Source: an uncultured Ignavibacteria bacterium
Lineage (GTDB): Bacteria > Bacteroidota > Ignavibacteria > Tepidaquicellales > OLB5
Assembly: GCA_963816535.1 (NCBI GenBank)
Contig: CAWFKW010000003.1
Span: 845,489-909,488, forward strand
DNA: 64,000 nucleotides
Direction of reading: 5' to 3'
Shown: positions 1 through 64,000 of the stretch, one piece after another
How the letters are laid out: each line of letters opens with the position of its first letter
Numbering within the stretch: position 1 is the stretch's first letter
The notes under the pieces: model-generated
Database searches by the model: none
Told to the model about the DNA's origin: nothing
What the model saw: only the letters and a program-made list of their open reading frames with translations
Position numbers and translations under genes: made by a program

Positions 1-213
1 GCCCGAAATTCTTTCAAGCTGTCTTATGCTCAGCTCAAGCTCATCAATCCTGTTTCTTTGCTCGTTAACAGCCGTCATATCTATATCCTGAACGTATTTC
101 TCACGCAGCTTCGCGAACCCGGCAAGCATTGGCGCCGCCGATGAAAGAACTCCGAGAGTAAGCGGCCTCAGCCTGTAGGCCGCATTACCATATTTATATG
201 TTTTGTTTTCCAT
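1..213 (-). CDS. phage structural-module protein, N-terminal 71 codons only (runs off the left edge). Its position after the tube gene suggests a tail assembly chaperone.
   Basis: The ATG at 213-211 lies 1 nt after the TAA (217-215) of the upstream gene. The frame stays open to position 1 (MENKTYKYGNAAYRLRPLTLGVLSSAAPMLAGF...). Function is inferred from gene order only. Confidence 0.4.
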   Translation of the reverse strand, partial: MENKTYKYGNAAYRLRPLTLGVLSSAAPMLAGFAKLREKYVQDIDMTAVNEQRNRIDELELSIRQLERISG

Positions 214-214
214 C

Positions 215-784
215 TTAAGCCACTTCCGTTTCGATGATTACTTGTTCAAGCCCTTCGGGAATAGTTACCGGCCCAGGCGACTTGATATCGATGCCAAGCG
301 CATTTTCAATTGAGCTGAGCGTGAACGCGCTGATAACAAAATCATCATGCAGCGAAATTGCGGTCGATTCATACGGCATCGATTTAGCGCCCCCTGGAGT
401 CGAAACTTTCATCTGCGGAGTAATTTCGACTATCTTAAATACTTCCTGGTGGGCGCCGCCCTTTATACCGAGGTATTTATATTCAAGATGTCTTTTGTTC
501 CGGACCCCTATGGCAAGCATGTCAAGCTTTTGTTTATCGGTTTCCATCAGTATTCCCGATGTTATACCTTCGAAGTCAAAATCAGCCGCGACCGTTTCAC
601 CCGCTTCGTTTTTGAACATGGTCTTCTTTGCGTTTATAGCCAGCCCGGAATTCGCAATGTGGCCCAGGTCAAGGCAGTTCTGCCCTGCGGCAAGATTTCC
701 GGGGATGGCTCCGTTTTGGTCAAGCTCAACGATGGCTATCTTATTGCCGCCCTTATCTTTTATATTTTTTATATTTGCAGACAT
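215..784 (-). CDS. putative phage major tail (tube) protein
   Basis: 189-aa ORF in the position of the tube gene in HK97-like modules, tightly packed with its neighbours. No specific motif recognised. Confidence 0.5.
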   Translation of the reverse strand: MSANIKNIKDKGGNKIAIVELDQNGAIPGNLAAGQNCLDLGHIANSGLAINAKKTMFKNEAGETVAADFDFEGITSGILMETDKQKLDMLAIGVRNKRHLEYKYLGIKGGAHQEVFKIVEITPQMKVSTPGGAKSMPYESTAISLHDDFVISAFTLSSIENALGIDIKSPGPVTIPEGLEQVIIETEVA

Positions 785-816
785 AATTTGTTTTAAGCAT
801 TAATACATGTTGGTTA

Positions 817-1284
817 TTAATTCAGGTTAATGTATTCAATTGTTATTGTAACTTCCAGCGTTTGCCTGTTATCGCGCCAGTCTGAATAAGGCTCTATTTT
901 GCTTATATAATAATTCTGCACTCCCGGCACGAGGCATAGAGAGCACCCTGTATCGGCGTTTTCGGACGAGATAAATCTTTCATAATCTTCTATCCAGCTT
1001 TCGGCTTCCGCCTGGTTCAATCCCTCTGAGTTCAGGTCATAAGTTGTTTCCATATGAGTAAGTATTTTCATCTTCAAAGACGATTCTAACAAATTCCTGT
1101 CTTCAAATCCGGGATTGATTTCTTCATCGCCTGCGGCAAGGTTAACCGAAGGAAATACGGCAATATCTGCCGGCGATTTCATTACAGGGATCACTTTTGC
1201 AATATCATGCATATACCCGTTTGAGGTATTTATCTTAAGCAGATCCAGCATCAGAACCCCGAATATTTGGCGTCTTTTTGTCAT
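817..1284 (-). CDS. phage neck protein (head-closure or tail-terminator class)
   Basis: 155-aa ORF between the connector and the tube gene. Its ATG (1284-1282) overlaps the TGA (1283-1281) of the upstream frame as ATGA, indicating translational coupling. Confidence 0.45.
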   Translation of the reverse strand: MTKRRQIFGVLMLDLLKINTSNGYMHDIAKVIPVMKSPADIAVFPSVNLAAGDEEINPGFEDRNLLESSLKMKILTHMETTYDLNSEGLNQAEAESWIEDYERFISSENADTGCSLCLVPGVQNYYISKIEPYSDWRDNRQTLEVTITIEYINLN

Positions 1285-1523
1285 ATGTTTGGTTTTTTAT
1301 ACCTGTTTATGATGTGTTCTATTTCAAGGTTTTCATAGACTGCGCTTTTGGGAACCGGGCCGCCGGAACTTTCAGATTTTTTCATGAGCAGATTTTTGCC
1401 GTCAGGCGAGTCATAAAAAGTTCTTGCCGCCAGGTACTTTACGGCTTTCTTCAGGTCTGCCGGGACCTGTTCGGCGTTAAGCGCTTCCCAATTATTCTGT
1501 TCGAACGTACCTCCTGAAACATG
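1281..1523 (-). other. C-terminal continuation of the gp6-like connector: 80 codons in frame with 1524-2003, with no start codon of its own
   Basis: Hand translation gives HVSGGTFEQNNWEALNAEQVPADLKKAVKYLAARTFYDSPDGKNLLMKKSESSGGPVPKSAVYENLEIEHIINRYKKPNI*. It is in the same frame as the upstream ORF and separated from it only by TAG 1526-1524. It contains the usual connector C-terminal motif (P.DLK.A...L.A..Y). Confidence 0.6.
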
Positions 1524-2003
1524 CTACATTGTGCAGCGCCAGAAGACATTTTGATAATTAACAATATCCCCCTGCTCATACTTTGTGTTTTCCGCCCAGT
1601 CATCCGCAGTCAGATATCCCGATGTGTACGCGGCTTTAATATTGCTTTCGCCAGGAGGGAATACGTAGTTTTTCAATATGCAGATCTGACCGCCGCTGAG
1701 AAGTAAAACTGAATCGCGAATCGAGTCAGGTTCCTTTATTATATCAGAGTATCCTTCTGAGGTTCTGAACTGCAGCTTTGTGATTTCAACGATTGGGAAT
1801 TCCTTAAGGTATGCAAACGCAGTGCCGCTGCCGTCCGGATTTTCTTCAATAACGCTGTAGCCAAGAGTCCGGTTGGTAAGCGAGTCAATTTCCGAAATGG
1901 CGCTTTGAATGCATTCGTTAAGCAGTTCGTCTTTGGATGTGTTGGCCGGGTCAATGGCCAGGAATCTCTTAAATTCAGTTAAGGTTAACATTTCATTTTT
2001 CAA
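1524..2003 (-). CDS. phage head-tail connector (gp6-like, Phage_connect_1 type), ends at an in-frame TAG
   Basis: The N-terminus LTLTEFKRFLAIDPANTSKDELLNECIQSAISEIDSLTNRTLGY is typical of gp6-like adaptors, and the gene follows MCP. See the finding on the TAG interruption. Confidence 0.75.
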   Translation of the reverse strand: MKNEMLTLTEFKRFLAIDPANTSKDELLNECIQSAISEIDSLTNRTLGYSVIEENPDGSGTAFAYLKEFPIVEITKLQFRTSEGYSDIIKEPDSIRDSVLLLSGGQICILKNYVFPPGESNIKAAYTSGYLTADDWAENTKYEQGDIVNYQNVFWRCTM

Positions 2004-2032
2004 AATTTACACGCGCCGGCCGTAACCGGCGC
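2002..2032 (-). terminator. GC-rich hairpin just downstream of the capsid gene (attenuator/terminator-like)
   Basis: GCGCCGG (2013-2019) pairs with CCGGCGC (2026-2032) around a 6-nt loop. On the minus strand it is followed by GTGTAAATTTT. Confidence 0.4.
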
Positions 2033-2067
2033 ATGCTGAATATTGGAGTTTGATTATTACCCCGGTT

Positions 2068-3294
2068 CTACGACACGGTCGTCTTGATCTGCACAAGCCT
2101 TGAAGCAAACGGCGCCTGTATATCGAACCGCATTTCAGTCCTGAACAAAGTCAGGTTATCCTGGAACGCCGATCTCTGAACATTGCCGTCGCTGAACGAA
2201 GCTTCGGTCGAACGCGCCATTGTCATTCCCGCCCTCATTGCCATGTACACTTTTTTCAGGTTTCCTAAAGTGATAAACGGCAGGTCGGGGCCCGATTCGT
2301 TCATTGAATAAGCTGAATCGGTTAAGGTCACCGGGATTCCCAATAGCGTCCGGTTCTTTACGTCATATTCGCTGAGCAGGTACCTGTCCATATCATCCTT
2401 TTTTGTATGCAGGTGGGCCCAAACCGATGGCGACATATACCACTCCGCGCCTTTCAGGTCGACTGTTCTCAGCAGCCCGATGGCATTAATAAGATCGTCT
2501 GTGCTTACGGTGTCGAAGCCTTTTCCTTCGGTAAGCTGGAACGCGGTCTGCATTCCGTAGAGGCCGGTTATATTTGCATCGCCCCTGAACAAAATGTTAT
2601 CAAGCAGCGCGCCGTAATATTCGCCGATGTTCTGTCTCAGGTATCCTTCAAGGTCGCTGGAAGAATCTTCAAGCAGTTCATCTGTGAACGGAACTATAAA
2701 CGAATACTTTTTGATAGTAAAAGTCGTCACTCCGAACGTATAATTAACAACCGGCTTCGGAGCGCCTTCTTCGGTGTATTGCGGAGTGAGTATGGTCGAG
2801 AGCGTCGGGAGCTTTATAAGGTTTGTCCCGACCGGGATTATCGAAACCTTGCCGAGCGTGATTCCGTTATCGCGGATGTCGTCGGCAATAAGCTTCATAG
2901 TGTCGGTAGGCACAGTATAACCGCCCGCGGCAGCCGAACCTTCCGCCTGCAGCGCGTGCTTGAACCCCGCCAGCTTCTCCGAAAACGGGCTGCCTTCCGG
3001 TTTCAGTATTGCATGCACATACCTGTTGAATCCTATTCTTCTTGCTTCTTTCTGGTCGGCGATGCATTTTTCTTTATCGCTAAGGAAATGATGGTACCAT
3101 TTCCCGTCTTTGGGCGCCTCCGGCGCTTTGACCCCGGTCGACGCCTTCTTCACTTCATCAATTACAGAATTGAATCCGTTCTTAAGGCCGTCCTGTATCT
3201 TATCAGGCAGCGAGTTAAGTTCATCCGGCTTGAACGAAGCCAGCTTGCCTATCTCAGCCTGGATCTGCGTAAAAATATCCTGTGTGTTCGTCAT
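2068..3294 (-). CDS. phage major capsid protein, HK97 family
   Basis: 408 aa with AAAGGYTVPTDTMKLIADDIRDNGITLGKV, resembling the HK97-fold MCP signature. It follows the prohead protease. Confidence 0.9.
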   Translation of the reverse strand: MTNTQDIFTQIQAEIGKLASFKPDELNSLPDKIQDGLKNGFNSVIDEVKKASTGVKAPEAPKDGKWYHHFLSDKEKCIADQKEARRIGFNRYVHAILKPEGSPFSEKLAGFKHALQAEGSAAAGGYTVPTDTMKLIADDIRDNGITLGKVSIIPVGTNLIKLPTLSTILTPQYTEEGAPKPVVNYTFGVTTFTIKKYSFIVPFTDELLEDSSSDLEGYLRQNIGEYYGALLDNILFRGDANITGLYGMQTAFQLTEGKGFDTVSTDDLINAIGLLRTVDLKGAEWYMSPSVWAHLHTKKDDMDRYLLSEYDVKNRTLLGIPVTLTDSAYSMNESGPDLPFITLGNLKKVYMAMRAGMTMARSTEASFSDGNVQRSAFQDNLTLFRTEMRFDIQAPFASRLVQIKTTVS

Positions 3295-3336
3295 ATTTTT
3301 TGTTTAAGCGTTTTTATTAATGTGCGTTAAGTTTTT

Positions 3337-4185
3337 TTATTCGATCCTGCCAGCTATAGAATCAACAGAGCGCTTTACAGCTTTTTCAACCAATGCCTCT
3401 AAGTTCGTACCGAGGTCATTTACTTGTTTTATGCTTCCGGCAAAGTGTTCCAGTTTGGGCATTATCATCTTATGGTATTGTTCTATTGTTTCTTCCGCGA
3501 TCGCCCTGAACTCATTTTCGTATCCGGCTGTTCCGAGAGATCTTAATTCATTTTTAATATTCTGAAGCTCTCCCATGAGATTCAACGAGTCATCTTCGCC
3601 CGCTGTCTTCCGGTTCATAATTGAATGCATAAAATATTTCTTCATCGTATCGCTTTTAACCGATTCAAGGGCGTTCAGAAAATTTGTTTCCTGTGTGGTC
3701 GAGTCGCCGTCAACCGGAACAAACACCGCGCTGTACTCGTATATCCCCCACTTATCGTAATATACATAGCCGTTTTCAGCGCGGGGCTCGGAGACCGGGT
3801 AAAACCATTTGCTCCATCCGTTTAAAAAGCCGAGCCTGTATAAATTATATACGTCGTGCGCGAAATCTGATTTATCGTCGTCTCTGAACTCGGTTTCGGC
3901 TCTCAGGTAATTTCCGTCGACCTGTATCTTCGTATTTTTTCCGAGCACAAAATCAAGCTGAATCCGCGCGGGAGTTGTTATGAAAAGGTCGCTTAGCCCG
4001 TGCTGAAACAATACGATAGGGTTTTTCCTGTAACGGCTGTCGTCATACCCCTCCGGTTTTAATACCTGTCCGTAGTCGTTCGGCTCTCCGCCGGATATGT
4101 AATGCGATACTGTTCTTTTTTGTTCGTTTATTTCCTGAACTGAATTCTGGAATAAGCTGAAAAGCGGCCTGATTAATTTCTGCAT
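3337..4185 (-). CDS. prohead serine protease (HK97/S78-like) with a C-terminal scaffold-like helical region
   Basis: Lies between portal and MCP. The segment NPIVLFQHGLSD...GNYLRAETEF resembles prohead protease cores. The C-terminal third is charged and helical. Confidence 0.65.
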   Translation of the reverse strand: MQKLIRPLFSLFQNSVQEINEQKRTVSHYISGGEPNDYGQVLKPEGYDDSRYRKNPIVLFQHGLSDLFITTPARIQLDFVLGKNTKIQVDGNYLRAETEFRDDDKSDFAHDVYNLYRLGFLNGWSKWFYPVSEPRAENGYVYYDKWGIYEYSAVFVPVDGDSTTQETNFLNALESVKSDTMKKYFMHSIMNRKTAGEDDSLNLMGELQNIKNELRSLGTAGYENEFRAIAEETIEQYHKMIMPKLEHFAGSIKQVNDLGTNLEALVEKAVKRSVDSIAGRIE

Positions 4186-4242
4186 AATTTTTTTTGCCCT
4201 GTTCCCGGTCGGCCGGGAATCTGTTTAGTTTTTTGTTTTACT

Positions 4243-5481
4243 TTATTTAAAGAAAAGATCGTTTGCCCTTGCGTCGTCGTAATCGTCCCAATTTCTCACC
4301 CGCCTAAGTTCGTTCTTTGTCGCCAGCTTATGCTTTGCGAACAGGTCTATCTCTTTAAGCTGCGTATCAACGTCTGTCACATCATATTCCATAGCAGTTA
4401 TAAGCTTTTCATCATAATTATCGTGCGCAAAAGCCGTAAGCTGTTCATTGAATACCATGTTTGAATAAGGTTCTATCGTATTTTTGATCCATGTCATCAA
4501 CGCGTTCCGGGAATTGTTGTAATTTGAATCTTCAAATATGTTCATCACCTGTTTTGATACGTCAAGCACAAGCATAATTTCTTCAAGGATCTGCCTGCGC
4601 GAGTTAGTGAAATCCATTTCCTTCTGCGTCCTGCCAAGCTCGGTCACTGCCGCGCCGCTATCCAGTATCAGCGGGTTCCTTGCGTTATCAACCCCGGTAT
4701 GGTTTTCTTTATACTGCTTTTTATATCTTTCAAACGTCTCATCCCTGAGCTCTTTGGGAAGACTGATAACAAAACCGGGAGACCCGTCGTTATCAAAAAA
4801 CCTGCGCTGGTAGCGGCTTTGAAGATATTCTATATCAAGCGTAAAGTTGAAAGCCGATACAGGCGCAAAAGGATAGATATTCGATTCGGGATGCGGGATC
4901 TTAAACCTGATAACATTCTCAGGTTTTACCTTCAGCGAAACGCCTCCCGCTTCATATAAATAATAATCGACCATAGAATTCTGCGAATCAAGCTTTGGCG
5001 TGACGTACTTTGCCGGCAATGGCACAAACTCAACAGGCAGTTTTCTGCCGAGGAATTCAACCCTGTTTACCAGTAGGTATGCATTGCCGTTTAAATCGCA
5101 ATTGACGGATGACAGGAACAGCATTTCTTTGAACGACTGCCCGTAACTGTTGCGTGACCGGAGAAGCTTTATGAACGGGTGATCGGTTATTTCAGTGCGG
5201 CGTGATTTAAACTGCCTGTACAAATAAATATTTGCGTTGGCTGCGTTGTACGCCTTTTTGTTTATGCACGCATAAGCAAACGACTTATAGAAATCCTGCG
5301 TCCCAGCGCGGTCAAACAGGTCCAGCCCTATCAGCGGCTTCCACACCGAAGGCGGATCGTCTGACCTAAACGCAGCCGAATTCTTTTTGTCCGGCCCCGG
5401 TTTGTAAAAGTCGTAAGCCGATCTGATCAAGTGTTTTAGTAATCCCATATTATTATTTGCCTCACCATTGCTTTCAACCAT
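4243..5481 (-). CDS. phage portal protein, HK97 family
   Basis: 412 aa immediately downstream of TerL, with portal-like segments (LNGNAYLLV, ...DFTNSRRQILEEI). Confidence 0.85.
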   Translation of the reverse strand: MVESNGEANNNMGLLKHLIRSAYDFYKPGPDKKNSAAFRSDDPPSVWKPLIGLDLFDRAGTQDFYKSFAYACINKKAYNAANANIYLYRQFKSRRTEITDHPFIKLLRSRNSYGQSFKEMLFLSSVNCDLNGNAYLLVNRVEFLGRKLPVEFVPLPAKYVTPKLDSQNSMVDYYLYEAGGVSLKVKPENVIRFKIPHPESNIYPFAPVSAFNFTLDIEYLQSRYQRRFFDNDGSPGFVISLPKELRDETFERYKKQYKENHTGVDNARNPLILDSGAAVTELGRTQKEMDFTNSRRQILEEIMLVLDVSKQVMNIFEDSNYNNSRNALMTWIKNTIEPYSNMVFNEQLTAFAHDNYDEKLITAMEYDVTDVDTQLKEIDLFAKHKLATKNELRRVRNWDDYDDARANDLFFK

Positions 5482-5551
5482 GTTTCACCCCTCTTTAGGC
5501 GGCGCGGTTGTTGGATTATTCGTATTTATTTAGTTTTTATTTGTTGTTTTG

Positions 5552-5607
5552 TCATTACTTATTTCTCATTGCTCATTACTTATTGCTCATTACTCATTAC
5601 TCAATCC
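5552..5607. repeat. heptamer-periodic microarray (8 units: TCATTAC/TTATTTC/TCATTGC...)
   Basis: Units counted directly from the sequence. The array overlaps the TerL stop codon (5599-5597) and fills the TerL-portal spacer. Confidence 0.85.
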
Positions 5608-7090
5608 TTCTTATTCTGGGTTCCGCTTCGCGCTTCAGCCGGCGCAGTATTGCGCCGCTCAAACAATCCACCTGGTCGTCATACTTTCCGTTCGGGAACG
5701 ATGCGCATTCATCAAGGAACCTCTCTGTCCACGAAGCGCCTTTTAGCAGGAATACCCTGCCCGATTCAATTGCCGGACTTGCCGCAATGAGCCTTGTTTG
5801 TTTATCGTCATTCGGCGGCTTATCTTCGATCACGTTAATTCTTTCGCCGCCGGACAGCTTTGATTCTTTCAGTTCCTGAACTATGCTGATACCTGATGCC
5901 TTTGGCTCGAACACGCATTCGCTTGCTGATGTATATCCGCAACGCTCGATGTAATCTATGTACGATTTCCTGAATTCCGGAAACCCCAGGTTGGCCACCC
6001 ACATATCCAGGATGTAAAACCTGCCGTCGTGAAAAATATAGCACATAGTGGCTGAGTTATCGCTTCGCTCTTTTCCGTATGCGGTATCAGTATAGAAATC
6101 AACAGCAAGACCCTGGGGCAGCTCCGAGAGGAAGAATTCTTTGAACCAGCGTTTCCTGATCAAACTTCCTTCTTCCGGCGAAGGACGCTGCTGGTATAAG
6201 CTTATAAACGTTCTCTCACTGATTTTCCTTATGTCATTAAGCCTTTCAAGTGAATGTTGTTCCGGCCAGAGCGCTTCGCCTGTTTTCCGCGGGTCGCCGG
6301 GATTCGAACTATCCTCTTTAACAGCCGGGAATGAAATTACTTCCCATTTGTCGCCGCCCGATTCCAAAAGCCTTCCGGCTAAGTCATCCTCATGCCAGCG
6401 TGTCATTGTCAGCAATACCCGGCTTGAATTATGCAGCCTCGTTTCAACAACATCGGTGTACCACTCCCAAACTGATCGGCGGTATGTTTCTGAAAATGCC
6501 TGCTCCGGGCCTTTCACAGGATCGTCTATGCTTAGTATATCAGCTGAAAACCCGGTCAGGCTTCCTCCTACTCCAACGCTTTTATAGTAACCGCCGTAGC
6601 CTTCCACTTCAAAGATATCGGCGCGCTTAAGGTATTTACGTTTTATTATATCTGTTTTACTCAGATCAAATATATCCGAATACGGAGTATCATCAACGAT
6701 CCTCTGGGTTTCCCGGTTGAACGAACATGCCAGCTCCTCTGAATAACTTGCGCCCACATATTTAAGATCCGGGTTCCTGCCGAGCATGTAAGCGGGAAAC
6801 CTCCGCGAGACCAGCTCCGATTTCCCGTGCTGCGGCGGCATGAATACCATCATCCTTGTTATCTTTCCAAGTGAAAATTCGTCCAGCTTCCGACACAGGT
6901 ATTCATGATGCCAGTTAACCTCATAATCTGGTTTTGTGTATTTAACAAAGCTCAATAGATCGTTTCGCTCACGTTCTGTGCTCATAAGTTTTTCCAGCTT
7001 TTCCTTCCGGAATTGTCTTTCTTCAAACCTATGCCTGAGTTCTAATTCAGATGTAGCTTTATATATAATTCCCGGCGCCGGCATTTTCAA
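5597..7090 (-). CDS. terL: terminase large subunit
   Basis: Walker A-like PPQHGKSE, Walker B-like ILSIDDP, TRWHEDDL coupling motif, and a C-terminal nuclease-type region. Confidence 0.9.
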   Translation of the reverse strand: MKMPAPGIIYKATSELELRHRFEERQFRKEKLEKLMSTERERNDLLSFVKYTKPDYEVNWHHEYLCRKLDEFSLGKITRMMVFMPPQHGKSELVSRRFPAYMLGRNPDLKYVGASYSEELACSFNRETQRIVDDTPYSDIFDLSKTDIIKRKYLKRADIFEVEGYGGYYKSVGVGGSLTGFSADILSIDDPVKGPEQAFSETYRRSVWEWYTDVVETRLHNSSRVLLTMTRWHEDDLAGRLLESGGDKWEVISFPAVKEDSSNPGDPRKTGEALWPEQHSLERLNDIRKISERTFISLYQQRPSPEEGSLIRKRWFKEFFLSELPQGLAVDFYTDTAYGKERSDNSATMCYIFHDGRFYILDMWVANLGFPEFRKSYIDYIERCGYTSASECVFEPKASGISIVQELKESKLSGGERINVIEDKPPNDDKQTRLIAASPAIESGRVFLLKGASWTERFLDECASFPNGKYDDQVDCLSGAILRRLKREAEPRIRRIE

Positions 7091-7496
7091 ATTCGTTAAT
7101 TACTTTTACGGCGTCTTCGCCGTTTACTATTCGGTTCAGGTAGAAATCAGGCAGTTTTTTTATATCATAATCGAGCTCTCTATCAGGTGAATCTCTCTGC
7201 CCCAGATAAATTTTACCCAGCAGCGAAACAATCGTAGGATTTTTTTCCTCAACCATAACAAATTGTTTCCCGCGTATTTTTGATTTGCCTTCTGCTATTG
7301 ACTTACGGTAAATCTTAAGAAATTTATCGTCGGCCTCCAAAACTTCAGGGGCGATTTCCATGATATCGGCAATTTCTTCCTTTGTACAGAAGATCCTTGC
7401 CAGAGCCGCCGCCAAATCATAATCAAATTTCTTCTTTATTACTTTACTTGTAGTTTTTCTCATAAGTAATCTGTGATTTGTAATTGTTATGGGCAA
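7059..7496 (-). CDS. terminase small subunit (putative)
   Basis: 145-aa ORF overlapping the TerL start, with an HTH-like segment (CTKEEIADIMEIAPEVL). Function assigned by position. Confidence 0.6.
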   Translation of the reverse strand: MPITITNHRLLMRKTTSKVIKKKFDYDLAAALARIFCTKEEIADIMEIAPEVLEADDKFLKIYRKSIAEGKSKIRGKQFVMVEEKNPTIVSLLGKIYLGQRDSPDRELDYDIKKLPDFYLNRIVNGEDAVKVINEFENAGAGNYI

Positions 7497-7861
7497 ACCT
7501 GTTCTTCAAGCGCGGCAAACGCTTTCATGAACGCGGCTGTTTCGGCCTCTTTTCGAGTTTGGAACTTTGGCGAAATTACATTCCCCGCCCCGGAATACAG
7601 CTCATAGTTAAAATATCCTATCCATTCATCATAGAGTATAACCACAAATATTCCGTATTGCTCAAAGAACTCATAAAGGTCTCTTTGGCGAAGAGTATCA
7701 ATCTCGTACCACTCTTCCGATTCATCTTCTTTTGTATCGGCGGCAACCGTATTGCCGTCTATCCTTATCCTTCTTTCTTTGTATATTCCCGGGTCGGCGA
7801 GGAAATCGACGAGGTCATACCAGGTATCGGGATAAGCGTTTTTTATTTTGTACCAGTCCAT
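7487..7861 (-). CDS. hypothetical phage protein (acidic, 124 aa)
   Basis: First ORF of the leftward operon; it overlaps the TerS start by 10 nt. Confidence 0.5.
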   Translation of the reverse strand: MDWYKIKNAYPDTWYDLVDFLADPGIYKERRIRIDGNTVAADTKEDESEEWYEIDTLRQRDLYEFFEQYGIFVVILYDEWIGYFNYELYSGAGNVISPKFQTRKEAETAAFMKAFAALEEQVCP

Positions 7862-8109
7862 AATCGGGTTAATTAAGTTTTATGAATTATATAAGTAAAT
7901 ATTACCAAAAACACGGGATCAGCCTTCAGGCAGAAGAGTTCACACGAAAGAGATCTTCTAAAAGTGGCGTAAATATCTCATAATTCAGCGCCTTGCAGCA
8001 GATTTGACTCTGCGGAAACTTTTGGTTCAATGTTGATTTTTTCAGCGGCCGGGCCTGCATGATAATCCTGGTTACGGGTTTATCTATTGTATCTTTTAGT
8101 TTAACGTAT

Positions 8110-8117
8110 TATATTTG
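8110..8117 (+). promoter_or_regulatory. Bacteroidota-type -7 box TATATTTG upstream of the repressor gene
   Basis: Matches the TAnnTTTG consensus and lies about 100 nt upstream of the ATG at 8220. Confidence 0.3.
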
Positions 8118-8168
8118 TCATGCACAATCGTTTAAATAACGACGGCGCTAATATAAAGCAATAGTTTA

Positions 8169-8181
8169 GACTTGTCAAGTC
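8169..8181. promoter_or_regulatory. perfect palindrome GACTTG-T-CAAGTC, candidate repressor operator
   Basis: Read directly from the sequence. It lies in the divergent intergenic region between the repressor gene and the packaging operon. Confidence 0.3.
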
Positions 8182-8219
8182 AAAACGTAAACAAAAGTTT
8201 ATAATTAAACAAAAAACAA

Positions 8220-8870
8220 ATGGATAAAAATGAACTTGGTTCAAGGTTAAGGCACGCAGCCGATACTTTATTCGGCGGAGTCGCGGGGTTGGCAAGCATC
8301 TGGGGCGTGCAGAAAGAAGGTATTTACAGCTATTTCCGCGGCGACAGGATGCCCGGGTCGGAGCTCTTAAGAGCGCTGTGCGAAGCCGGGCTTAATATCA
8401 ACTGGCTCCTGAGCGGACTCGGCGAAATGGCGCTCGCTTACGATAAGCCCAAAGGCAGGGCAAAATCAATCCAGATACCGGTGGTGGCAAATGTGCAGTG
8501 CGGCGTTCCGGCTGTTGAATTTACCTCCAACCCTGATAAATATATCGAATTCGACGGCATTAAAAATCTGCTGAACCCGTTTGGAGTTATAGCGCAGGGA
8601 TTAAGCATGGCGCAAACTATCCTTCCCGGCGATATTTTGATATGCTCGGAAGCTACCGGCCCGATAAAGAACAACACAATTTGCCTTGTCAGCTTCAAGA
8701 CTGAACCGGAAACAGCAATAGGCCTCATCAAGCGCGTCAGCTTCAATAACGACGGAACTGTGATATTATATTCTGATAATGCGCGGAACTTTCCGCCAAT
8801 GGTTTTCAGGGAAACCGAAATTTTCAGGCTTTACCCTGTTTATACTAAATTTATCAGAAACGTAAAATAA
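8220..8870 (+). CDS. CI/LexA-type phage repressor (HTH plus S24 peptidase domain)
   Basis: N-terminal CI-like HTH (IWGVQKEGIYSYFRGDRMPGSELLRALCEAGLNINWLL). C-terminal S24 motifs: GLSMAQTILPGDILI (Ser) and GLIKRV (Lys). Confidence 0.85.
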   Translation: MDKNELGSRLRHAADTLFGGVAGLASIWGVQKEGIYSYFRGDRMPGSELLRALCEAGLNINWLLSGLGEMALAYDKPKGRAKSIQIPVVANVQCGVPAVEFTSNPDKYIEFDGIKNLLNPFGVIAQGLSMAQTILPGDILICSEATGPIKNNTICLVSFKTEPETAIGLIKRVSFNNDGTVILYSDNARNFPPMVFRETEIFRLYPVYTKFIRNVK

Positions 8871-9038
8871 ACAAAGGCTTAACAAGTTTATCTCATTACT
8901 TAGAATAGCCGGCTCCAATGACTCAACAGGTAAAGGCGGATGTATTTATTTCGTCTATCTTTAATGTTAAATCATTATTGGCTATATTTATGTTTATATT
9001 TATAGTGATTTTTGAACTAGATATGAATTTAATCTAAG

Positions 9039-9749
9039 ATGAAGCCTTTTTTCGAAACTCCGCATTGTGAATCGTGCAATTCAAGATTGAGCAACGTATT
9101 CTGCAATCTTGACGACGAACAGCTAAAAGAGCTGGATGTGGAAAAGGCATGCAACATCTACAAAAAGGGCCAGCTCATATTCTTCGAAGGCAACAAGCCA
9201 CAGGGATTGTTCTGCATCAACCGCGGCAAAGTAAAGATTTTCCAGACAGGAATTGAAGGCAAAGAGCAGATCCTGAGGCTCGCCAAAGAAGGCGATATCT
9301 TAGGCTACCGTACGCTCATCAGCGGCGGCTCATATTCCGCTTCCGCAATGGCTATGGATGATTCTTCAATTTGCATGGTTCCAAAAAAGACCTTTTTCGA
9401 CCTCCTTCAGGCTAACTCAGAGCTATCTACCCGCGTTATGCAGCTCCTTTCGCAGGACCTCAAAGACGCCGAACACAGAATAACCGAGCTTGCTCAGAAG
9501 CCGGTCAGAGAAAGGGTCGCTGAGACTATCCTGATGCTAAGAGAGTTTTATGGCCTCGAAACCGACAACCAAACGATTAACGCGCTCATTTCAAGAGACG
9601 ATATCGCAAATATTACGGGCACCGCAACCGAAACGGCGATAAGAGTTCTTTCCGATTTCAAGAGCGAGAAGATGATAGACCTGAAAGGCAAAAAAATACG
9701 CGTTTTGAACGGCAACCTCCTGCTCAAAGCGGCCAACGTTTACGATTGA
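9039..9749 (+). CDS. Crp/Fnr family transcriptional regulator with an N-terminal Cys cluster (FNR-like)
   Basis: cNMP-binding fold plus a C-terminal HTH (RDDIANITGTATETAIRVLSDF). N-terminus HCESCNSRLSNVFC. Confidence 0.9.
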   Translation: MKPFFETPHCESCNSRLSNVFCNLDDEQLKELDVEKACNIYKKGQLIFFEGNKPQGLFCINRGKVKIFQTGIEGKEQILRLAKEGDILGYRTLISGGSYSASAMAMDDSSICMVPKKTFFDLLQANSELSTRVMQLLSQDLKDAEHRITELAQKPVRERVAETILMLREFYGLETDNQTINALISRDDIANITGTATETAIRVLSDFKSEKMIDLKGKKIRVLNGNLLLKAANVYD

Positions 9750-9936
9750 ACAACGCAGAATAGAGCCCCGGAGAAAAATCTGCGGGTATCTACATCCCGC
9801 AATCCTCGTATTTTTATCAATTCTAAGCTAAAATCAAACAAATTCGTTCTTCTAACAAAAGTCATATTCTTTTATGACCAAAGTCATTGTTTTCTCTGTG
9901 GCATTCCTGTTAGTTTTGTATTGAAGTTAAAAGATT

Positions 9937-10593
9937 GTGCAAATGAAAACAAATGGTTCATCTACATTATTCTGCGACCTGGTTAAGACTGCTAGGGGAT
10001 ACAGAGAATTAAAGTTTGTCAAGAACGATTTCCTTTTCAAAGAAGATGAGCGCCCGGAAGGCATTTATCATATTACCAAGGGAAAGGTCAAGATACTCAA
10101 ACATAATAATGTTGAGTATCCTGTTATACTTCATATAGCCAAAGAAGGCGAACAGCTGGGAGTGCAGGCCATTATTGATAACACAAACCACTGGAACTCA
10201 GCCATTGCCCTGGATGACGTTGAAGTATGTTTTGTGCCCGCCGAAGAATTCCTGAGGATAATAAACAACGACAATGCGCTTAAGCTGCAGATAATGCAGT
10301 CGCTCTGTTCAAGGATAAACCGGATCGAAAACCAGATCTCCAGCAGGAGCGAGAAATCGGCCAACCAGCGCTTCGCAGAAGTGCTTACATTTCTTGCAAA
10401 TGATTACGGAATATCCGAAGATAAAGCGCTGAACATAACGCTGAGCCTTGATGAGCTGGCGAGCCTGGCAGGTACATCGCGCAATTATCTCGCAAAAATT
10501 ATTTCTGAATTTACTTCTAACGGCTGGATACAGGCTGAAGAAGGACGATTCAAGATCCTCCAAATGCCGCGTCTGCTGGAAACTGCAAAGTAA
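9937..10593 (+). CDS. Crp/Fnr family transcriptional regulator
   Basis: cNMP-binding-like core plus an HTH (LDELASLAGTSRNYLAKIISEF). The ATG at 9943 is a likely alternative to the GTG at 9937. Confidence 0.85.
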   Translation: MQMKTNGSSTLFCDLVKTARGYRELKFVKNDFLFKEDERPEGIYHITKGKVKILKHNNVEYPVILHIAKEGEQLGVQAIIDNTNHWNSAIALDDVEVCFVPAEEFLRIINNDNALKLQIMQSLCSRINRIENQISSRSEKSANQRFAEVLTFLANDYGISEDKALNITLSLDELASLAGTSRNYLAKIISEFTSNGWIQAEEGRFKILQMPRLLETAK

Positions 10594-30719: not shown

Positions 30720-31181
30720 ATGGATAGTTTCACAAGAAGACAAAATATAAGGTATATCCTTCTTATCGCTGTGACGACGATGAGCGTATTCGCTTTGAGC
30801 ATGGCGTATTCGGGAAGCAGGCTGAAGAAGGAAAAAGTCAGGACAAACCAGGCAGATGTTTCCGCTGTTGACGCATATAATATTCTGAAGAACGGCAAAG
30901 ATAACGGCGGCGTGGTTGTGCTTGATCTGCGGACTCCGGGTGAATACGATGAAGGGCACATTGCCGGCAGCGTTCATATTAGTTATTTTGCCGATGATTT
31001 CAAAAAGAAACTTTCATCTCTTGACAGGAACAAAACATACCTGCTGTATTGCAAATCCGGAAGAGTCTGCCCTAAAGTAATAAAGAGAATGAAAAAGCTT
31101 GGTTTCAAAGAAGCGCACAAGATCTCAGGCGGCTTAAAGGAATGGAAAGCCCGTAACCTGCCGGTCGAATACTCCCGATAG
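30720..31181 (+). CDS. rhodanese-like sulfurtransferase domain protein (membrane-anchored or exported)
   Basis: VVLDLRTPGEYDEGHIAGSVHI plus the active-site loop CKSGRV. Confidence 0.85.
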   Translation: MDSFTRRQNIRYILLIAVTTMSVFALSMAYSGSRLKKEKVRTNQADVSAVDAYNILKNGKDNGGVVVLDLRTPGEYDEGHIAGSVHISYFADDFKKKLSSLDRNKTYLLYCKSGRVCPKVIKRMKKLGFKEAHKISGGLKEWKARNLPVEYSR

Positions 31182-31209
31182 TTCCACAGTAACCAATAAC
31201 AATACTGTT

Positions 31210-60136: not shown

Positions 60137-60240
60137 GGAAAAAACAGCCACAAAGTTGAAGCGAAGCGAAAACCCGCCTTTGGAGGGACACACGAAGAAA
60201 ATAAAACAGTAATTTTATATTCCTAATTAAACCTCACTAA

Positions 60241-60268
60241 TGTCATTCCCGCGAAGGCGGGAATCCAG
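60241..60268. repeat. REP-like hairpin GTCATTCCCGC-GAAG-GCGGGAATCCAG
   Basis: 8-bp stem 60245-60252 / 60257-60264. It is the inverse-orientation counterpart of the 13545-13573 element. Confidence 0.7.
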
Positions 60269-60450
60269 ATCACAATTTCAGATAGCAAAATTATTTTGCC
60301 CCTACAAGAAATTAATGCAACGAAGACACTAATTTACACAAACATTTAACGCAGAGTAACAAAGAAATATAATATTTAATGGAAGCAATTAATTTACTAA
60401 AAGGTTAAATGATAGTAATTGTTTGTCAATCAGAACCACTAAAAAGTAAA

Positions 60451-63400
60451 TTATTCATTAATCATACTTGAAATCCTATTTTTAAGTTCATTATCAGTTA
60501 GTGAATTATTTATTTCGTTAATTTTTTCTTTAATCTTATTAGAAGATTCATTATTCTGATATTGTCTCAAATATGCATCTACTTCATGAATCCATTTATC
60601 TGCATTTACATTAATTATTTCTTCCTTAATGCCGAACTCAATAAAGAAATCAATTTTAACTTGTTGATTTGAATTTAGTTGGTCCAAAAGCTCATCAACA
60701 ATTTCATTTCGGTCGGAACTTTTCATAAATTGCAGATTCATCATAACAAACTCTGTATCTGGCCCTTTCTTCAAATCAATTTTGATTTGATCCCAGACAT
60801 AATTAAGAGCTCTTTCTTTCGCTTCATTTGATAAATTATCAAATAAGGCAAATCTAAATTTTGATAACTCTGCTTTAAAGGTTTCAGTGTCAATATCTTT
60901 AAGACTTCTGAGAATAGGACTTAGTAATGTATCCTTATCGTTTTGAGTTATCCTAGAATCTCTATTCATTAACTCCATGCTGTAAGATAAAAATGCGTCC
61001 CTATCTAAGGATGTTGCATTACCCCAGAAATCTTTATTCAAAAATTGCTCTAAAGCATTCTTAATTATTGGTTTATTATCGTCAATTCTATCCACTTTAT
61101 CTATTAGCACTTCATTGACAAACCTTACAATATATTTTGCATATAATTCTTTGGATTTCCAATAACTTTCAAATAAATATTTAAGAATATCTTTGCTTTG
61201 GAAATTATATATTTTTTCAATAAGTTCGTAAATAATTCCTTTCCACTTTTCTTCAGTATTTCCCAAGTCTGAAGCCTCATTTGATGCTGCGGAATCGAAC
61301 ATTGTTGAATTGAAGAGTGGGAATTTACCAAATTTAGAACGTTTGAACTCCTTTTCATACAATTCTGGATCTACTTGTATGGCTTCAGTTAATTTCTTTC
61401 TTATGATTTTTCGTTTATCTTCTTCTAAAACTTTATATAATTCAACAAAACCACTGAACCATTCTGCATCTATATCATACTCATTTTCCCATTTTGAACT
61501 TTCTTTAATTAAAGTATCAAATACTTGATTTGCAACTTCTTTACTAATATTAACATTAGAATTTAAAACCCAATTCAGAACTACATTCGGAGGATAAAGA
61601 GGGTCTTCTACATCCACTTTACTAAAATCATTCGTCAGACATTCAATTGATTTAGCAAACAGGTTATTGAGTATTTCTTTATCTGCTATTTCACTAAGTC
61701 TGGCAATTAAAAGCCCAACCGAATAGCTTGTTTTCGAAATTTCAGGAGTCAAACCATTTACTGCATTCCTTAATATTTTTTTGCTTTTTATTATTTCTGG
61801 AATATTTCCCTCTGTGGGTAAAAGCCATTCCCACAAACTCTCTAAGTAATCTTTACTTGATAAGTTAATTAATATCAATTTACTCAATAGTTCTCTATAA
61901 TGCTCAATTATTTCAATTCCTAAAATTGAAATATTTTCGTTTACTCCTTTGATATGAGGTTGAATTTTATTCCAATAGTTGGGAAGAGTATTATTTACAT
62001 CTAGAGTTACATTTGAAAATAAAGGAATTAACCTACTGTATATTATTCTTGCTACAGTTTTGAGTTTTTCGTAACTAATTTTTGGAATATCGCCTTTACC
62101 CAAACGCCAAATCGATGGGTTTATATTTTCCCCCAGCCCAAGTAAAACATCCGAAGGAATGGATTCAAATAAAGAGCCAATCATTACATCCAATCTAAAT
62201 TCAATTTTTTCATTAACGTTTTGTAAAGCACTAATAAGATTTTCTCTTAAAGTAAGGGGTGTCACTAAATTATTCAGTCTTATCTTAGTTTCAATTTCAA
62301 AATTTCCCAAAAACCCATCCTTTTCAATATTAATCTTTATTAAATCCAATGCGTTTTCCTCATCTTTTCTCATCAGTGAAGCAATAATTTTATCGAATAG
62401 TTCCGAACTTGCATTGCCAGAAAACGTAAAAAATAAATCTGCATTCTCATTTGTAATTCTATTGGTTGCATCAAGGAAATTTCTCAATCTGTAACCATCT
62501 GTTGGCTCATCAAGTATTTCTTCTAATTCTTTGTCATTCAAGAACTGACTATCAAAATCTAAATTCTTCCTGTATTGTTCTAGGTTGTTAAATGACCCGA
62601 TATTATTCAAAAAGTATTTATAAGCTTTAGGATAATAGTTTTGGATTATGAGGATTTTCAACAAAAACCCTAAATCCTTTGAAATTCTATCTTTTGGCAA
62701 TGACTGCATATCACCGTCTGCTTTTTCTAAATCTAACGCTAAATTATAACTAGCCACAAGATTATTTAGAATTTGCTTAGCCCTTCTCGGATTGTTCATA
62801 AATTTTGTAAATAAAATTGCTTGGAAGTTTGTTATATCAACTGAATTATTAATTCCAATTTTCTCTGCAAGGTCTTTAATGTAGTCTAACAAATACTCAG
62901 CATAAACTGGTCTCAAATAAATCTCGACATTGAATAATTTTCTCAAAAATTCATCCTCATCAATTACATCTTTCCCATCTTTTTCACCCATTCCTTTGCT
63001 GATATGGTTCTTTATTTTTTCATGATCGCATGGTATAAGATAAATACAATCATTAACCCCCAAAAAAGTACTAATCCCAGTTAATACTTCCAAAACTTTA
63101 GAACTTTGACACCTATCTAAATTGTCAATTATAAAAACTTTCCTATGGTCCTTTATTGAAGGGTGATTTATGGCTTGTTTAAACATATCTTCAAATTGTT
63201 CTGGTGAGTTGGGCTTTTCAGTGTCTTTAACTATAGTAGTGACTACGCCTTTACTTCTGATTGAAGTTATAACTGCAATAATTACAGGTAATATTGCTTT
63301 ACTTATTAGATCAATCCAGTCTTTGCATGCAAAACCAATCGGGGGGTAAAAATACTTAATTAAAAAAAGTCCAGTTAAAACCGGGATTAACCAGTAGAAA

Positions 63401-63822
63401 TTCTTACTAAATATTTTCCATGAAAATTTAGTAGTATATTGGGCTCCTTCATGTGTATTAATATATAACTTTTCATTGAATTTTAAATCATTGTTGAACC
63501 ATTCCTTGTCAATTCTCAACAATATTTGCCTTCGCAATGAATCAGCAGAATATTTCCAGACATCAAAATTCAAATATTTTATTTTCTTATTCTCTTTTTT
63601 ATCCAATTCCACACATAGTGCATTTACAATACCTGTTTTACCCGTTCCCCAACCTCCAAAAAGTCCAATGCAAAAAGGAGCAGGACATTCCTTAATGGTT
63701 TCCATTAATGCATTTATGTATCCGGAATGTTTAAAAATATCCTTTGGGTGTTCATCTTTTCCCCAATATGCATCAAACCTTGGTAAATCTCGTAAATATT
63801 TTAAGTGATTAGCCATAACCAA
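60451..63822 (-). CDS. KAP-family P-loop NTPase, 1123 aa, with TM helices inserted in the NTPase domain
   Basis: Walker A GLFGGWGTGKTG. Hydrophobic helices FYWLIPVLTGLFLIKYFY and ILPVIIAVITSI. Walker B-like VFIIDNLDRC. The long helical C-terminal region has no recognised domain. Confidence 0.85.
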   Translation of the reverse strand: MVMANHLKYLRDLPRFDAYWGKDEHPKDIFKHSGYINALMETIKECPAPFCIGLFGGWGTGKTGIVNALCVELDKKENKKIKYLNFDVWKYSADSLRRQILLRIDKEWFNNDLKFNEKLYINTHEGAQYTTKFSWKIFSKNFYWLIPVLTGLFLIKYFYPPIGFACKDWIDLISKAILPVIIAVITSIRSKGVVTTIVKDTEKPNSPEQFEDMFKQAINHPSIKDHRKVFIIDNLDRCQSSKVLEVLTGISTFLGVNDCIYLIPCDHEKIKNHISKGMGEKDGKDVIDEDEFLRKLFNVEIYLRPVYAEYLLDYIKDLAEKIGINNSVDITNFQAILFTKFMNNPRRAKQILNNLVASYNLALDLEKADGDMQSLPKDRISKDLGFLLKILIIQNYYPKAYKYFLNNIGSFNNLEQYRKNLDFDSQFLNDKELEEILDEPTDGYRLRNFLDATNRITNENADLFFTFSGNASSELFDKIIASLMRKDEENALDLIKINIEKDGFLGNFEIETKIRLNNLVTPLTLRENLISALQNVNEKIEFRLDVMIGSLFESIPSDVLLGLGENINPSIWRLGKGDIPKISYEKLKTVARIIYSRLIPLFSNVTLDVNNTLPNYWNKIQPHIKGVNENISILGIEIIEHYRELLSKLILINLSSKDYLESLWEWLLPTEGNIPEIIKSKKILRNAVNGLTPEISKTSYSVGLLIARLSEIADKEILNNLFAKSIECLTNDFSKVDVEDPLYPPNVVLNWVLNSNVNISKEVANQVFDTLIKESSKWENEYDIDAEWFSGFVELYKVLEEDKRKIIRKKLTEAIQVDPELYEKEFKRSKFGKFPLFNSTMFDSAASNEASDLGNTEEKWKGIIYELIEKIYNFQSKDILKYLFESYWKSKELYAKYIVRFVNEVLIDKVDRIDDNKPIIKNALEQFLNKDFWGNATSLDRDAFLSYSMELMNRDSRITQNDKDTLLSPILRSLKDIDTETFKAELSKFRFALFDNLSNEAKERALNYVWDQIKIDLKKGPDTEFVMMNLQFMKSSDRNEIVDELLDQLNSNQQVKIDFFIEFGIKEEIINVNADKWIHEVDAYLRQYQNNESSNKIKEKINEINNSLTDNELKNRISSMINE

Positions 63823-64000
63823 TTAATTAAAAAATTTGACTTCAGTTAACTTAAAAGTCTATTCAAAAAATGTATTATGTGAAGTCCGGGGTGTTGAAAT
63901 ATCAGCAGCTCGGGTTATCTAAATATATCATAACACAATAATTTTTACAAGCAAGAATAGTAGTCCAATACTTTCTAAATTAGATTGTTTATTGGTATTA

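What the first reader, a model, noticed from the sequence alone, without database searches (positions are those of the whole stretch)
1281..2003. Head-tail connector gene split by a single in-frame TAG that falls inside a CBM5/12-like insertion
ORF 1524-2003 ends at a TAG (1526-1524). The next 80 codons are in the same frame and have no start codon. They end in an ATGA overlap with the next gene, which is a sign of translational coupling. The canonical gp6-type adaptor is divided between the two halves. The N-terminal part, up to ...IKAAYTSGY, is upstream of the TAG. The usual C-terminal VPADLKKAVKYLAARTFY is downstream. Between them is W-x5-Y-x2-GD-x-V-x-Y-x4-W-R-C-T-M-*-H-V-S-x9-W. This resembles the small chitin-binding-type CBM5/12 motif seen in phage proteins, where the equivalent stretch often reads C-x-Q-x-H-x-S. 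TAG is one transition from CAG (Gln). The possible explanations are a recent nonsense mutation in a decaying element, programmed readthrough or suppression that controls assembly, or TAG-to-Gln recoding of the kind described in some phages.
Basis: partly seen in the sequence, partly recalled or inferred. Interest (0 to 1): 0.65.

Follow-up and report, generated by a model that had tools for sequence, protein, structure and literature searches.

The report
Phage neck gene cut by stop
A prophage gene for the protein that joins head to tail, which carries a small sugar-binding insertion, is cut by one premature TAG stop codon that looks like an ordinary recent point mutation (or a base-calling error), not a programmed recoding signal.

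Summary
On the minus strand, 1991-1527 encodes 155 codons and ends at TAG (1526-1524). The same frame runs 80 more codons to a TGA that overlaps the ATG of the next gene.

Read through, the 236-aa product is a gp6/gp15-type head-tail adaptor (PF05135) with a CBM5/12 domain (PF02839) inserted at about residues 128-175. The TAG is codon 156, inside that insertion.

- All seven close homologues (236-238 aa) and at least eight more distant cluster representatives are uninterrupted.
- The three closest loci read CAG (Gln) at that codon.
- TAG is a normal terminator here: 15 of 50 ORFs, including the capsid gene just upstream, in this window and in related phages.
- There is no tRNA, no Rfam match, no stable RNA structure after the TAG, and no other in-frame TAG in the head module.
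- Codons after the TAG show no decay (dN/dS about 0.09), and neighbouring genes are intact.

Most likely this is a recent CAG-to-TAG nonsense change that removes the portal-binding C-terminus. An assembly error cannot be excluded, because no available reads cover the site. Recoding and programmed readthrough are not supported. The CBM-decorated adaptor family is a modest novelty.

The parts
1527..1991 (-). N-terminal 155 codons of the head-tail adaptor gene. The start is ATG 1991-1989, as in all homologues; the ORF tool's TTG at 2003 lies upstream.
   Evidence: PF05135 at 29.5 bits for this half alone, and phrog_442 head-tail adaptor. It aligns to residues 1-155 of the uninterrupted homologues.
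1524..1526 (-). Premature in-frame TAG, codon 156.
   Evidence: The homologous codon is CAG in L001, L005 and L006, GAT in L004 and GAA in L007.
1284..1523 (-). C-terminal 80 codons of the same adaptor gene, now untranslated unless the TAG is read through. They hold the last CBM strand, the VPADLKKAVKYLAA helix and the conserved C-terminal tail IEHIINRYKKPNI.
   Evidence: Same frame with no stop. PF05135 profile positions 45-100. 79% nucleotide identity to L006, and dN/dS 0.08-0.09.
1464..1613 (-). CBM5/12 insertion, about residues 127-176. The Pfam-matched core is residues 132-167, at 1491-1598.
   Evidence: PF02839 E=1.5e-8. PDB profile hits to Vibrio chitin deacetylase CBMs and the ChiA1 chitin-binding domain. 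Fold match to 1ed7 with TMt 0.68 and rmsd 1.9. The segment is absent as a block from the 191-197-aa homologues.
1281..1284 (-). ATGA overlap: TGA stop of the adaptor frame and ATG of the next gene.
   Evidence: The same 4-nt overlap occurs in relatives L004, L007, L001 and L006.
817..1284 (-). Downstream conserved 155-aa neck/head-completion candidate gene, probably translationally coupled to the adaptor.
   Evidence: Full-length match at 60-79% identity to the gene in the same position in L004, L005 and L007. No Pfam, PHROG or NCBIfam hit.
2068..3294 (-). Major capsid protein gene, HK97 type, which ends with TAG.
   Evidence: PF05065 E=7e-39. TAG stop in the window and in L004 and L006; the L005 capsid 3' end also reads TAG.

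Best explanation
The segment 1281-1991 (minus strand) is a single gene for an Ad1-type head-to-tail adaptor of the HK97 gp6 / SPP1 gp15 family. A roughly 50-residue CBM5/12 carbohydrate-binding module is inserted between the beta-rich middle part and the C-terminal helices.

In this copy, codon 156 inside the insertion has changed from CAG (Gln) to TAG by one C-to-T transition. The host and the phage use the standard code, so translation stops there. The 155-aa product lacks the last strand of the CBM, the conserved helices, and the C-terminal tail that in this family anchors the adaptor in the portal clip. It should therefore be unable to close and join heads. Translation of the ATGA-coupled downstream gene is probably also reduced.

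The change is recent, since nothing else in the gene or the head module is damaged.

Shown here: the gene architecture, the intact homologues, the CAG ancestry, the use of TAG as a stop, and the absence of decay. Inferred: loss of function, polarity on the downstream gene, and that the base is real rather than a consensus error.
For: Intact homologues:
- Seven full-length uninterrupted homologues of 236-238 aa at 40-71% identity.
- At least eight more 50%-cluster representatives that also carry the insertion, all without a stop.
- The codon at the TAG column is CAG in the three closest loci.

Gene context:
- The gene order TerL-portal-protease-MCP-adaptor-155aa-189aa matches relatives, and every neighbour is full length.

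TAG behaves as a stop:
- It ends 15 of 50 ORFs in the window, including the capsid gene 60 nt upstream, and it ends the capsid gene of relatives.
- There is no tRNA in 64 kb, no Rfam match in 1-10000, and no stable RNA fold after the TAG (z = -0.37).

Recency:
- dN/dS is 0.07-0.08 before the TAG and 0.08-0.09 after it.
- The C-half is 79% identical in nucleotides to L006, comparable to the neighbouring intact gene (g155 0.74; g189 0.77 versus L005).

Loss of function:
- Fold hits are to solved adaptors (phage 812 neck, RcGTA adaptor) and to gp6-domain proteins.
- In SPP1, the gp15 C-terminus inserts into the portal clip, and replacing its last five residues abolishes binding (PMC9701221).
Against: No reads cover 1524-1526, so the base is unverified. 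The only public runs holding this strain give about 2x unitigs that miss the site.

The total absence of any further lesion is equally what an assembly error or a functional read-through would produce.

Only about 9 kb of the prophage is visible. A suppressor tRNA or further in-frame TAGs in the tail genes to the left of the window cannot be excluded.
Confidence: 0.6

Rival explanations
1. The TAG is a sequencing or consensus error. The true sequence would be CAG, or another sense codon, and the gene would be intact.
For: It is a single-base transition in an otherwise perfect gene. The C-terminal 80 codons are undamaged and conserved, and all neighbouring genes are intact.

The contig is 1.9 Mb and the same strain occurs in soil metagenome runs, so the contig may come from a long-read metagenome assembly.

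A second oddity of the same direction (G to A on the + strand) may exist. The host exonuclease gene (TIGR04122) has ATA or no canonical start where its profile begins, at about 31219.
Against: About 29 independent short unitigs of run X2 (roughly 5 kb in total) lie on the window. All eight printed for the prophage stretch and all eight printed for the host stretch show no differences, and 29 of the unitigs laid fall in the 99%-or-better class. The only difference printed is one letter in the 8946-9082 piece. The consensus is therefore generally accurate.

Substitution errors that create stops are rarer than real nonsense mutations in prophage genes in good assemblies; this point rests on general knowledge and was not tested here.
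Confidence: 0.25
2. The TAG is real but leaky. Low-level readthrough, by a near-cognate tRNA-Gln or a host or phage amber suppressor, would supply the 12 adaptor copies needed per virion. The prophage would then stay viable, or adaptor supply would be throttled.
For: The downstream frame is intact and strongly conserved. Only 12 copies per virion are needed; this is established for gp6/gp15-type adaptors (PMC9701221). The base following the stop is C, a comparatively weak termination context in E. coli; this is my own knowledge and was not tested in this host.
Against: The stop is not conserved in any of 15 or more homologues. There is no stimulatory RNA structure. There is no tRNA in the window. 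TAG also ends the adjacent capsid gene, which must terminate efficiently.
Confidence: 0.1
3. The phage uses a reassigned code (TAG = Gln, code 15), as some crAss-like and Lak phages do.
For: The host belongs to the Bacteroidota/Ignavibacteriota group, whose phages include recoded lineages (PMC9523058, PMC11210395). The aligned residue in the closest homologues is Gln.
Against: There is a single in-frame TAG in about 9 kb of late genes. The capsid genes of this phage and of its relatives end with TAG, and relatives also end another gene with TAG. There is no suppressor tRNA in the window. Homologues encode CAG, not TAG.
Confidence: 0.02
4. These are two genuine separate genes: a 155-aa protein ending at the TAG, and an independent downstream gene.
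For: One database protein (P0096, 152 aa) ends four residues before the equivalent position.
Against: No usable start codon exists for the first 46 codons after the TAG. Every homologue with known context is a single ORF of 226-256 aa. P0096 ends mid-domain and is most simply a contig-end fragment; its contig could not be retrieved. The split would cut the CBM fold in two.
Confidence: 0.02

Closest known systems
SPP1 gp15 / HK97 gp6 head-to-tail adaptor (Ad1; Pfam PF05135 Phage_connect_1)
   Same: The Pfam match is above threshold. The gene sits directly after the major capsid gene. It has N-terminal helices plus a C-terminal helix and a conserved C-terminal tail. Fold matches are to gp6-domain proteins.
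   Different: It is about twice the size of gp15 (236 aa against 102 aa). It has a larger beta-rich middle part (residues 46-124 in the model) and an inserted CBM5/12 domain. In this copy it is truncated at codon 156.
Adaptor proteins in solved necks: Rhodobacter capsulatus GTA adaptor (6toa, 6te8) and Staphylococcus phage 812 neck protein (8q01, 8qje)
   Same: These are the best structural matches to the model of homologue P0001: E = 5.7e-5 to 5e-3, TM 0.4-0.6.
   Different: Sequence identity is only 14-16%. None of these was seen to carry a CBM5/12 module. The model has moderate confidence, with pLDDT 70.8.
CBM5/12 chitin-binding domains (Bacillus circulans ChiA1 ChBD 1ed7; Vibrio chitin oligosaccharide deacetylase CBMs 4ny2, 3wx7)
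   Same: The Pfam PF02839 match, the PDB profile hits (E = 2e-5 to 1e-3), the fold match (TMt 0.68, rmsd 1.9), and the invariant aromatics W132, Y138, Y146 and W168.
   Different: Here the domain is inserted inside a virion neck protein rather than appended to an enzyme or tail fibre. The ligand is unknown.
Stop-codon-recoded phages (TAG = Gln, code 15; crAss-like, Lak)
   Same: There is an in-frame TAG at a position where close relatives have Gln, and the host is from the Bacteroidota-related FCB group.
   Different: The defining features are absent: there is one TAG only, TAG is still used as a terminator, there is no suppressor tRNA in view, and relatives encode CAG.

Membership tests
gp6-like head-tail connector / Ad1 adaptor (PF05135) | Sequence match to the family profile above the curated threshold | tested here: met
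   The read-through product scores 40.8 bits against a cut-off of 21.2. The N-half alone scores 29.5. The C-half alone scores 15.2, below the cut-off, but it covers profile positions 45-100. phrog_442 head-tail adaptor matches at 2.8e-10.
gp6-like head-tail connector / Ad1 adaptor (PF05135) | Position in the late operon directly downstream of the major capsid gene | tested here: met
   The order is TerL 5597-7090, portal 4243-5481, protease 3337-4185, MCP 2068-3294, adaptor 1281-1991. Relatives have the same order.
gp6-like head-tail connector / Ad1 adaptor (PF05135) | Fold resembling solved adaptors in portal-neck complexes | tested here: met
   The test used a model of the 71%-identical homologue P0001 (pLDDT 70.8). 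Foldseek hits were 8q01_b at 5.7e-5 and 6toa_C/D at 5e-4 to 9e-4. In BFVD, gp6-domain proteins matched at 2.5e-7. Confidence is moderate only.
gp6-like head-tail connector / Ad1 adaptor (PF05135) | C-terminus that docks in the portal clip; dodecameric ring | not testable with these tools
   A conserved C-terminal tail (IEHIINRYKKPN) exists downstream of the TAG. Its role is inferred from SPP1 gp15 (PMC9701221).
CBM5/12 carbohydrate-binding module (PF02839) | Profile match above threshold and conserved surface aromatics | tested here: met
   35.0 bits against a cut-off of 26.2 at residues 132-167. W132, Y138, Y146 and W168 are invariant in eight sequences.
CBM5/12 carbohydrate-binding module (PF02839) | Small three-stranded beta fold like ChiA1 ChBD | tested here: met
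   1ed7 matches at TMt 0.68 and rmsd 1.9 over 43 columns. Vibrio deacetylase CBMs match at rmsd 1.4-2.1.
CBM5/12 carbohydrate-binding module (PF02839) | Binds chitin or another polysaccharide | not testable with these tools
TAG-to-Gln recoded phage (genetic code 15) | Many in-frame TAGs in (late) genes | tested here: not met
   Only one in-frame TAG is found in the visible head and neck genes. All the others are full-length ORFs under the standard code.
TAG-to-Gln recoded phage (genetic code 15) | TAG not used as a terminator in the recoded genes | tested here: not met
   The capsid gene ends with TAG in the window and in L004 and L006; the L005 capsid 3' end also reads TAG. L004 ends a second gene with TAG as well.
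TAG-to-Gln recoded phage (genetic code 15) | Phage-encoded suppressor tRNA(CUA) | tested here: inconclusive
   None is found in the 64-kb window, but the left part of the prophage lies outside the window.
Programmed stop-codon readthrough | Stop codon conserved among homologues | tested here: not met
   None of the 15 or more homologues has a stop there, and the column is variable: Q/D/E/A/N/S.
Programmed stop-codon readthrough | Stimulatory downstream RNA structure or motif | tested here: not met
   The minimum free energy z-score is -0.37 against shuffles. There is no Rfam match.
Gene inactivated by nonsense mutation (pseudogene) | Uninterrupted orthologues, and a sense codon one step from the stop in the nearest relatives | tested here: met
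   The codon is CAG in L001, L005 and L006.
Gene inactivated by nonsense mutation (pseudogene) | Stop confirmed in the underlying reads | not testable with these tools
The only runs holding the strain do not cover 1524-1526.
Gene inactivated by nonsense mutation (pseudogene) | Secondary decay: further stops, frameshifts or raised dN/dS downstream | tested here: not met
   No decay is seen. dN/dS in the C-half is 0.08-0.09. This implies a very recent event, an error, or continued function.

The most novel reading that the evidence does not exclude
The amber codon is genuine and is tolerated. On this reading the lysogen, or its population, makes a small amount of full-length CBM-decorated adaptor by natural UAG readthrough or a suppressor tRNA encoded elsewhere. 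A single stop inside a dispensable surface insertion would then act as a throttle, or a conditional switch, on head completion in a temperate phage of an uncultured Ignavibacteriota/Bacteroidota host.
Probability: 0.07. Interest if true: 0.6.

Novelty: new variant of a known kind. Interest (0 to 1): 0.25.

Why it matters
The stop codon itself is of practical rather than conceptual importance.

- **Annotation.** The locus should be annotated as one interrupted adaptor gene, not as two hypothetical proteins.
- **Prophage status.** If the base is real, an otherwise intact-looking prophage is probably unable to make infectious particles.
- **False positives for recoding.** The case shows that a TAG aligned to Gln in a Bacteroidota-group phage is not enough to call recoding.
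- **The adaptor family.** The more interesting by-product is a family of head-tail adaptors with a CBM5/12 module inserted as a cassette. It is present in at least 15 sequence clusters from metagenomes, absent from close insertion-less relatives, and has no full-length match among 50,697 deposited phage genomes. A carbohydrate-binding domain displayed 12-fold around the neck would be a new place for a phage to carry an adhesin, for example to bind chitin, cell-wall or matrix polysaccharide. This could be tested by expressing an intact homologue.

Tried and rejected
**Raw-read check.** Only soil-metagenome runs X1-X4 were found. X1 and X2 hold unitigs at about 2x depth that are identical to the window, but none crosses 1524-1526. 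A narrow query around the TAG found nothing.

**Related loci.** The genome contigs and viral-contig scans found no relative. The metagenome-contig scan gave one locus, L005.

**Contig look-ups.** Look-ups for the window's own product P0003 and for the 152-aa protein P0096 returned nothing on record. Whether P0096 is a contig-end fragment therefore stays open.

**Structure prediction.** The intact 71%-identical homologue P0001 was modelled instead.

**Deposited phages.** A tblastn search gave only partial hits, either to the N-terminal adaptor part or to the CBM alone.

**Readthrough signals.** The RNA fold after the TAG is not stable and there is no Rfam match.

**Prophage copy number.** A higher prophage than host copy number was suggested by the word shares, 0.13 against 0.06. 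Laying the unitigs did not bear this out: there is about one piece per kb in both regions.

**Decay hypothesis.** This was rejected for the visible part of the element.

Full report
**What is in the sequence**

On the minus strand, an ORF starts at 1991 (ATG; the ORF tool lists a TTG at 2003) and ends at TAG 1526-1524. The same reading frame then continues for 80 sense codons (1523-1284) to TGA 1283-1281. That TGA shares the tetranucleotide ATGA with the start of the next gene, 817..1284. After the TAG the only canonical in-frame start is an ATG at codon 47 of 80, at 1385-1383. It is an internal Met/Leu position in homologues and could give only a 34-residue peptide.

**What the gene is**

With the TAG read as a sense codon, the 236-aa product has two Pfam matches:
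- PF05135 (phage gp6-like head-tail connector), 40.8 bits against a cut-off of 21.2.
- PF02839 (CBM_5_12), 35.0 bits against a cut-off of 26.2, at residues 132-167, across the TAG at codon 156.

PHROGs gives head-tail adaptor. The gene lies in a standard late module on the minus strand:
- large terminase 5597-7090
- portal 4243-5481
- prohead protease 3337-4185
- HK97-type major capsid protein 2068-3294
- this adaptor gene
- conserved 155-aa and 189-aa genes

An S24-peptidase repressor gene (8220-8870, + strand) closes the element. From 9039 onward the genes are chromosomal: Crp/Fnr regulators, the cbb3 oxidase cluster and a T9SS-sorted protein. The host's CcoNO protein is 77-78% identical to proteins of Ignavibacterium and unclassified Bacteroidota MAGs. 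This is therefore a prophage in an uncultured FCB-group bacterium.

**Homologues**

Two searches of 5.8 billion proteins returned seven full-length relatives of 236-238 aa at 40-71% identity, plus only the window's own 155-aa fragment. All seven are uninterrupted. At the TAG column they have Q, Q, D, E, E, A and N, next to an invariant His.

At the DNA level the three closest loci (L001, L005, L006) read CAG. The others read GAT and GAA. CAG to TAG by a single transition is therefore the parsimonious history.

Contigs of relatives show the same gene order and the same 4-nt overlap with the 155-aa gene.

An exhaustive profile search found:
- at least eight further 50%-identity clusters of 226-256 aa that match end to end, so they also carry the insertion;
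- 191-197-aa relatives in which the conserved ...AGY motif runs straight into the ...VPxDL helix.

The CBM5/12 module is thus a discrete cassette of about 50 residues, window residues about 127-176. The stop lies in its middle.

**Structure**

The Gln-substituted fusion was not accepted by the tool, so the 71%-identical homologue P0001 was modelled. Its mean pLDDT is 70.8. The model has these elements:
- N-terminal helices
- a beta-rich middle part
- a small beta module at residues 143-171
- helices at 178-193, 196-208 and 224-231

Foldseek places the model with solved neck adaptors: phage 812 at 5.7e-5 and the RcGTA adaptor at about 5e-4 to 9e-4. It places the small module with the ChiA1 chitin-binding domain 1ed7 (TMt 0.68, rmsd 1.9) and with Vibrio deacetylase CBMs. 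In BFVD the best hits are gp6-domain and head-tail adaptor proteins. A sequence profile against the PDB finds the same CBM domains, at E = 2e-5 to 1e-3.

**Is the TAG programmed?**

The evidence says no.
- TAG is a normal terminator. It ends 15 of 50 ORFs in the window, including the capsid gene 60 nt upstream. It also ends the capsid gene of related phages.
- No other head-module gene contains an in-frame TAG, and each is collinear and full length against relatives.
- ARAGORN finds no tRNA in 64 kb.
- Rfam finds nothing in 1-10000 even at E = 1.
- The 126 nt around and after the stop fold no better than shuffles, with z = -0.37.
- The stop is not conserved in any homologue.

These results fail the defining features of code-15 recoding (as described in PMC9523058 and PMC11210395) and of programmed readthrough.

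**Is the element decaying?**

Not visibly.
- dN/dS against L001 and L006 is 0.07-0.08 before the stop and 0.08-0.09 after it.
- Nucleotide identity to L006 is 0.79 for the C-half. For comparison it is 0.65 for the N-half, 0.74 for the next gene and 0.84 for the capsid gene.

The stop is therefore very recent, or an error, or the distal part is still being used.

**Consequence if the stop is real**

In the family prototype SPP1 gp15, the C-terminus inserts into the portal clip, and replacing its last five residues abolishes portal binding (PMC9701221). The truncated product here loses 80 residues, including the most conserved part of the family: VPADLKKAVKYLAA...FYDSP.GKN...IEHIINRYKKPN. It should therefore not attach to the portal. 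This is an inference. Ribosomes would stop 240 nt before the ATGA junction, so expression of the coupled 155-aa gene is probably lowered as well. That is also an inference.

**Could it be an error?**

This could not be tested.
- The only public runs with this strain are soil metagenomes at about 2x depth.
- About 29 of their unitigs, roughly 5 kb in total, lie on the window. The sixteen printed for the prophage and host stretches show no differences; the only difference printed is one letter in the 8946-9082 piece. This speaks for a generally accurate consensus.
- None of those unitigs covers 1524-1526.

I therefore put about 0.6 on a genuine recent nonsense mutation, about 0.25 on a consensus error, about 0.1 on a real but leaky or suppressed stop, and a few percent on everything else.

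**Comparison and novelty**

A prophage gene hit by a nonsense mutation is ordinary. The mildly new point is the architecture: an Ad1 adaptor with a CBM5/12 cassette. It is present in at least 15 metagenomic clusters and absent from insertion-less close relatives. It has no full-length match among 50,697 deposited phage genomes, where the hits cover only the N-terminal adaptor part or the CBM alone. Two literature searches for a carbohydrate-binding module in a head-tail adaptor turned up nothing relevant. I rate the finding low in interest (0.25) and classify it as a new variant of a known kind because of the decorated adaptor, not because of the stop.

Noticed in passing
window 2013-2032 (minus strand); L005 about 345-365: There is a GC-rich hairpin (GCGCCGG-TTACGG-CCGGCGC) followed by a T-rich stretch between the capsid gene's TAG and the adaptor start. 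It is conserved in the related phage contig L005 (GCGCCGGTTTCGGCCGGCGC). It may be a partial terminator or attenuator that sets the capsid-to-neck protein ratio. The consensus terminator scan did not call it.
   Followed up: partly
window about 31219-32235 (+): The host gene for the ligase-associated DNA damage response exonuclease (TIGR04122, 430 bits) has no ATG, GTG or TTG where the profile begins. The codons there read GTT ATA TCA TCA TTA TTA, and the first canonical start is 77 codons in. This could be an ATG-to-ATA change, which is G to A on the + strand, the same direction as the adaptor's CAG to TAG. It could also be a non-canonical start.
   Followed up: partly
window 8946: A 241-nt unitig of soil run X2 matches 8946-9082 and then continues for 104 nt that are unlike the window to the left of 8946. 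This point lies between the S24 repressor gene and the first host gene. It may mark the prophage end, as an empty site or an attP junction. However, a similar loose end occurs inside host DNA at 20052, so the evidence is weak.
   Followed up: partly
window 1527-1991 versus flanks: The adaptor N-half is much more diverged from the nearest relative (65% nucleotide identity, dS saturated) than the capsid gene (84%) or the adaptor C-half (79%). dN/dS is still about 0.08. This suggests a mosaic junction or a fast-evolving but constrained segment.
   Followed up: partly
window 60001-64000 (ORF 60451..63822, minus): G+C drops to 0.30, against 0.42 for the window, across a 1123-aa ORF. This may be a horizontally acquired gene.
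   Followed up: no
related JGI contig versus window 8220-8870 and 30720-32235: In both elements an S24 repressor gene sits back to back with the packaging genes at the element's edge. In the relative, the flanking genes are a 153-aa rhodanese and then 344-aa and 524-aa genes. In the window, a 153-aa rhodanese and the exonuclease gene lie 22 kb away. The insertion site or the local gene order therefore differs between hosts.
   Followed up: no
protein P0096: This 152-aa database homologue ends (...VRYNGIIY) four residues before the position equivalent to the TAG. It is probably a contig-end fragment, but its contig was not on record, so a second interrupted copy cannot be ruled out.
   Followed up: partly
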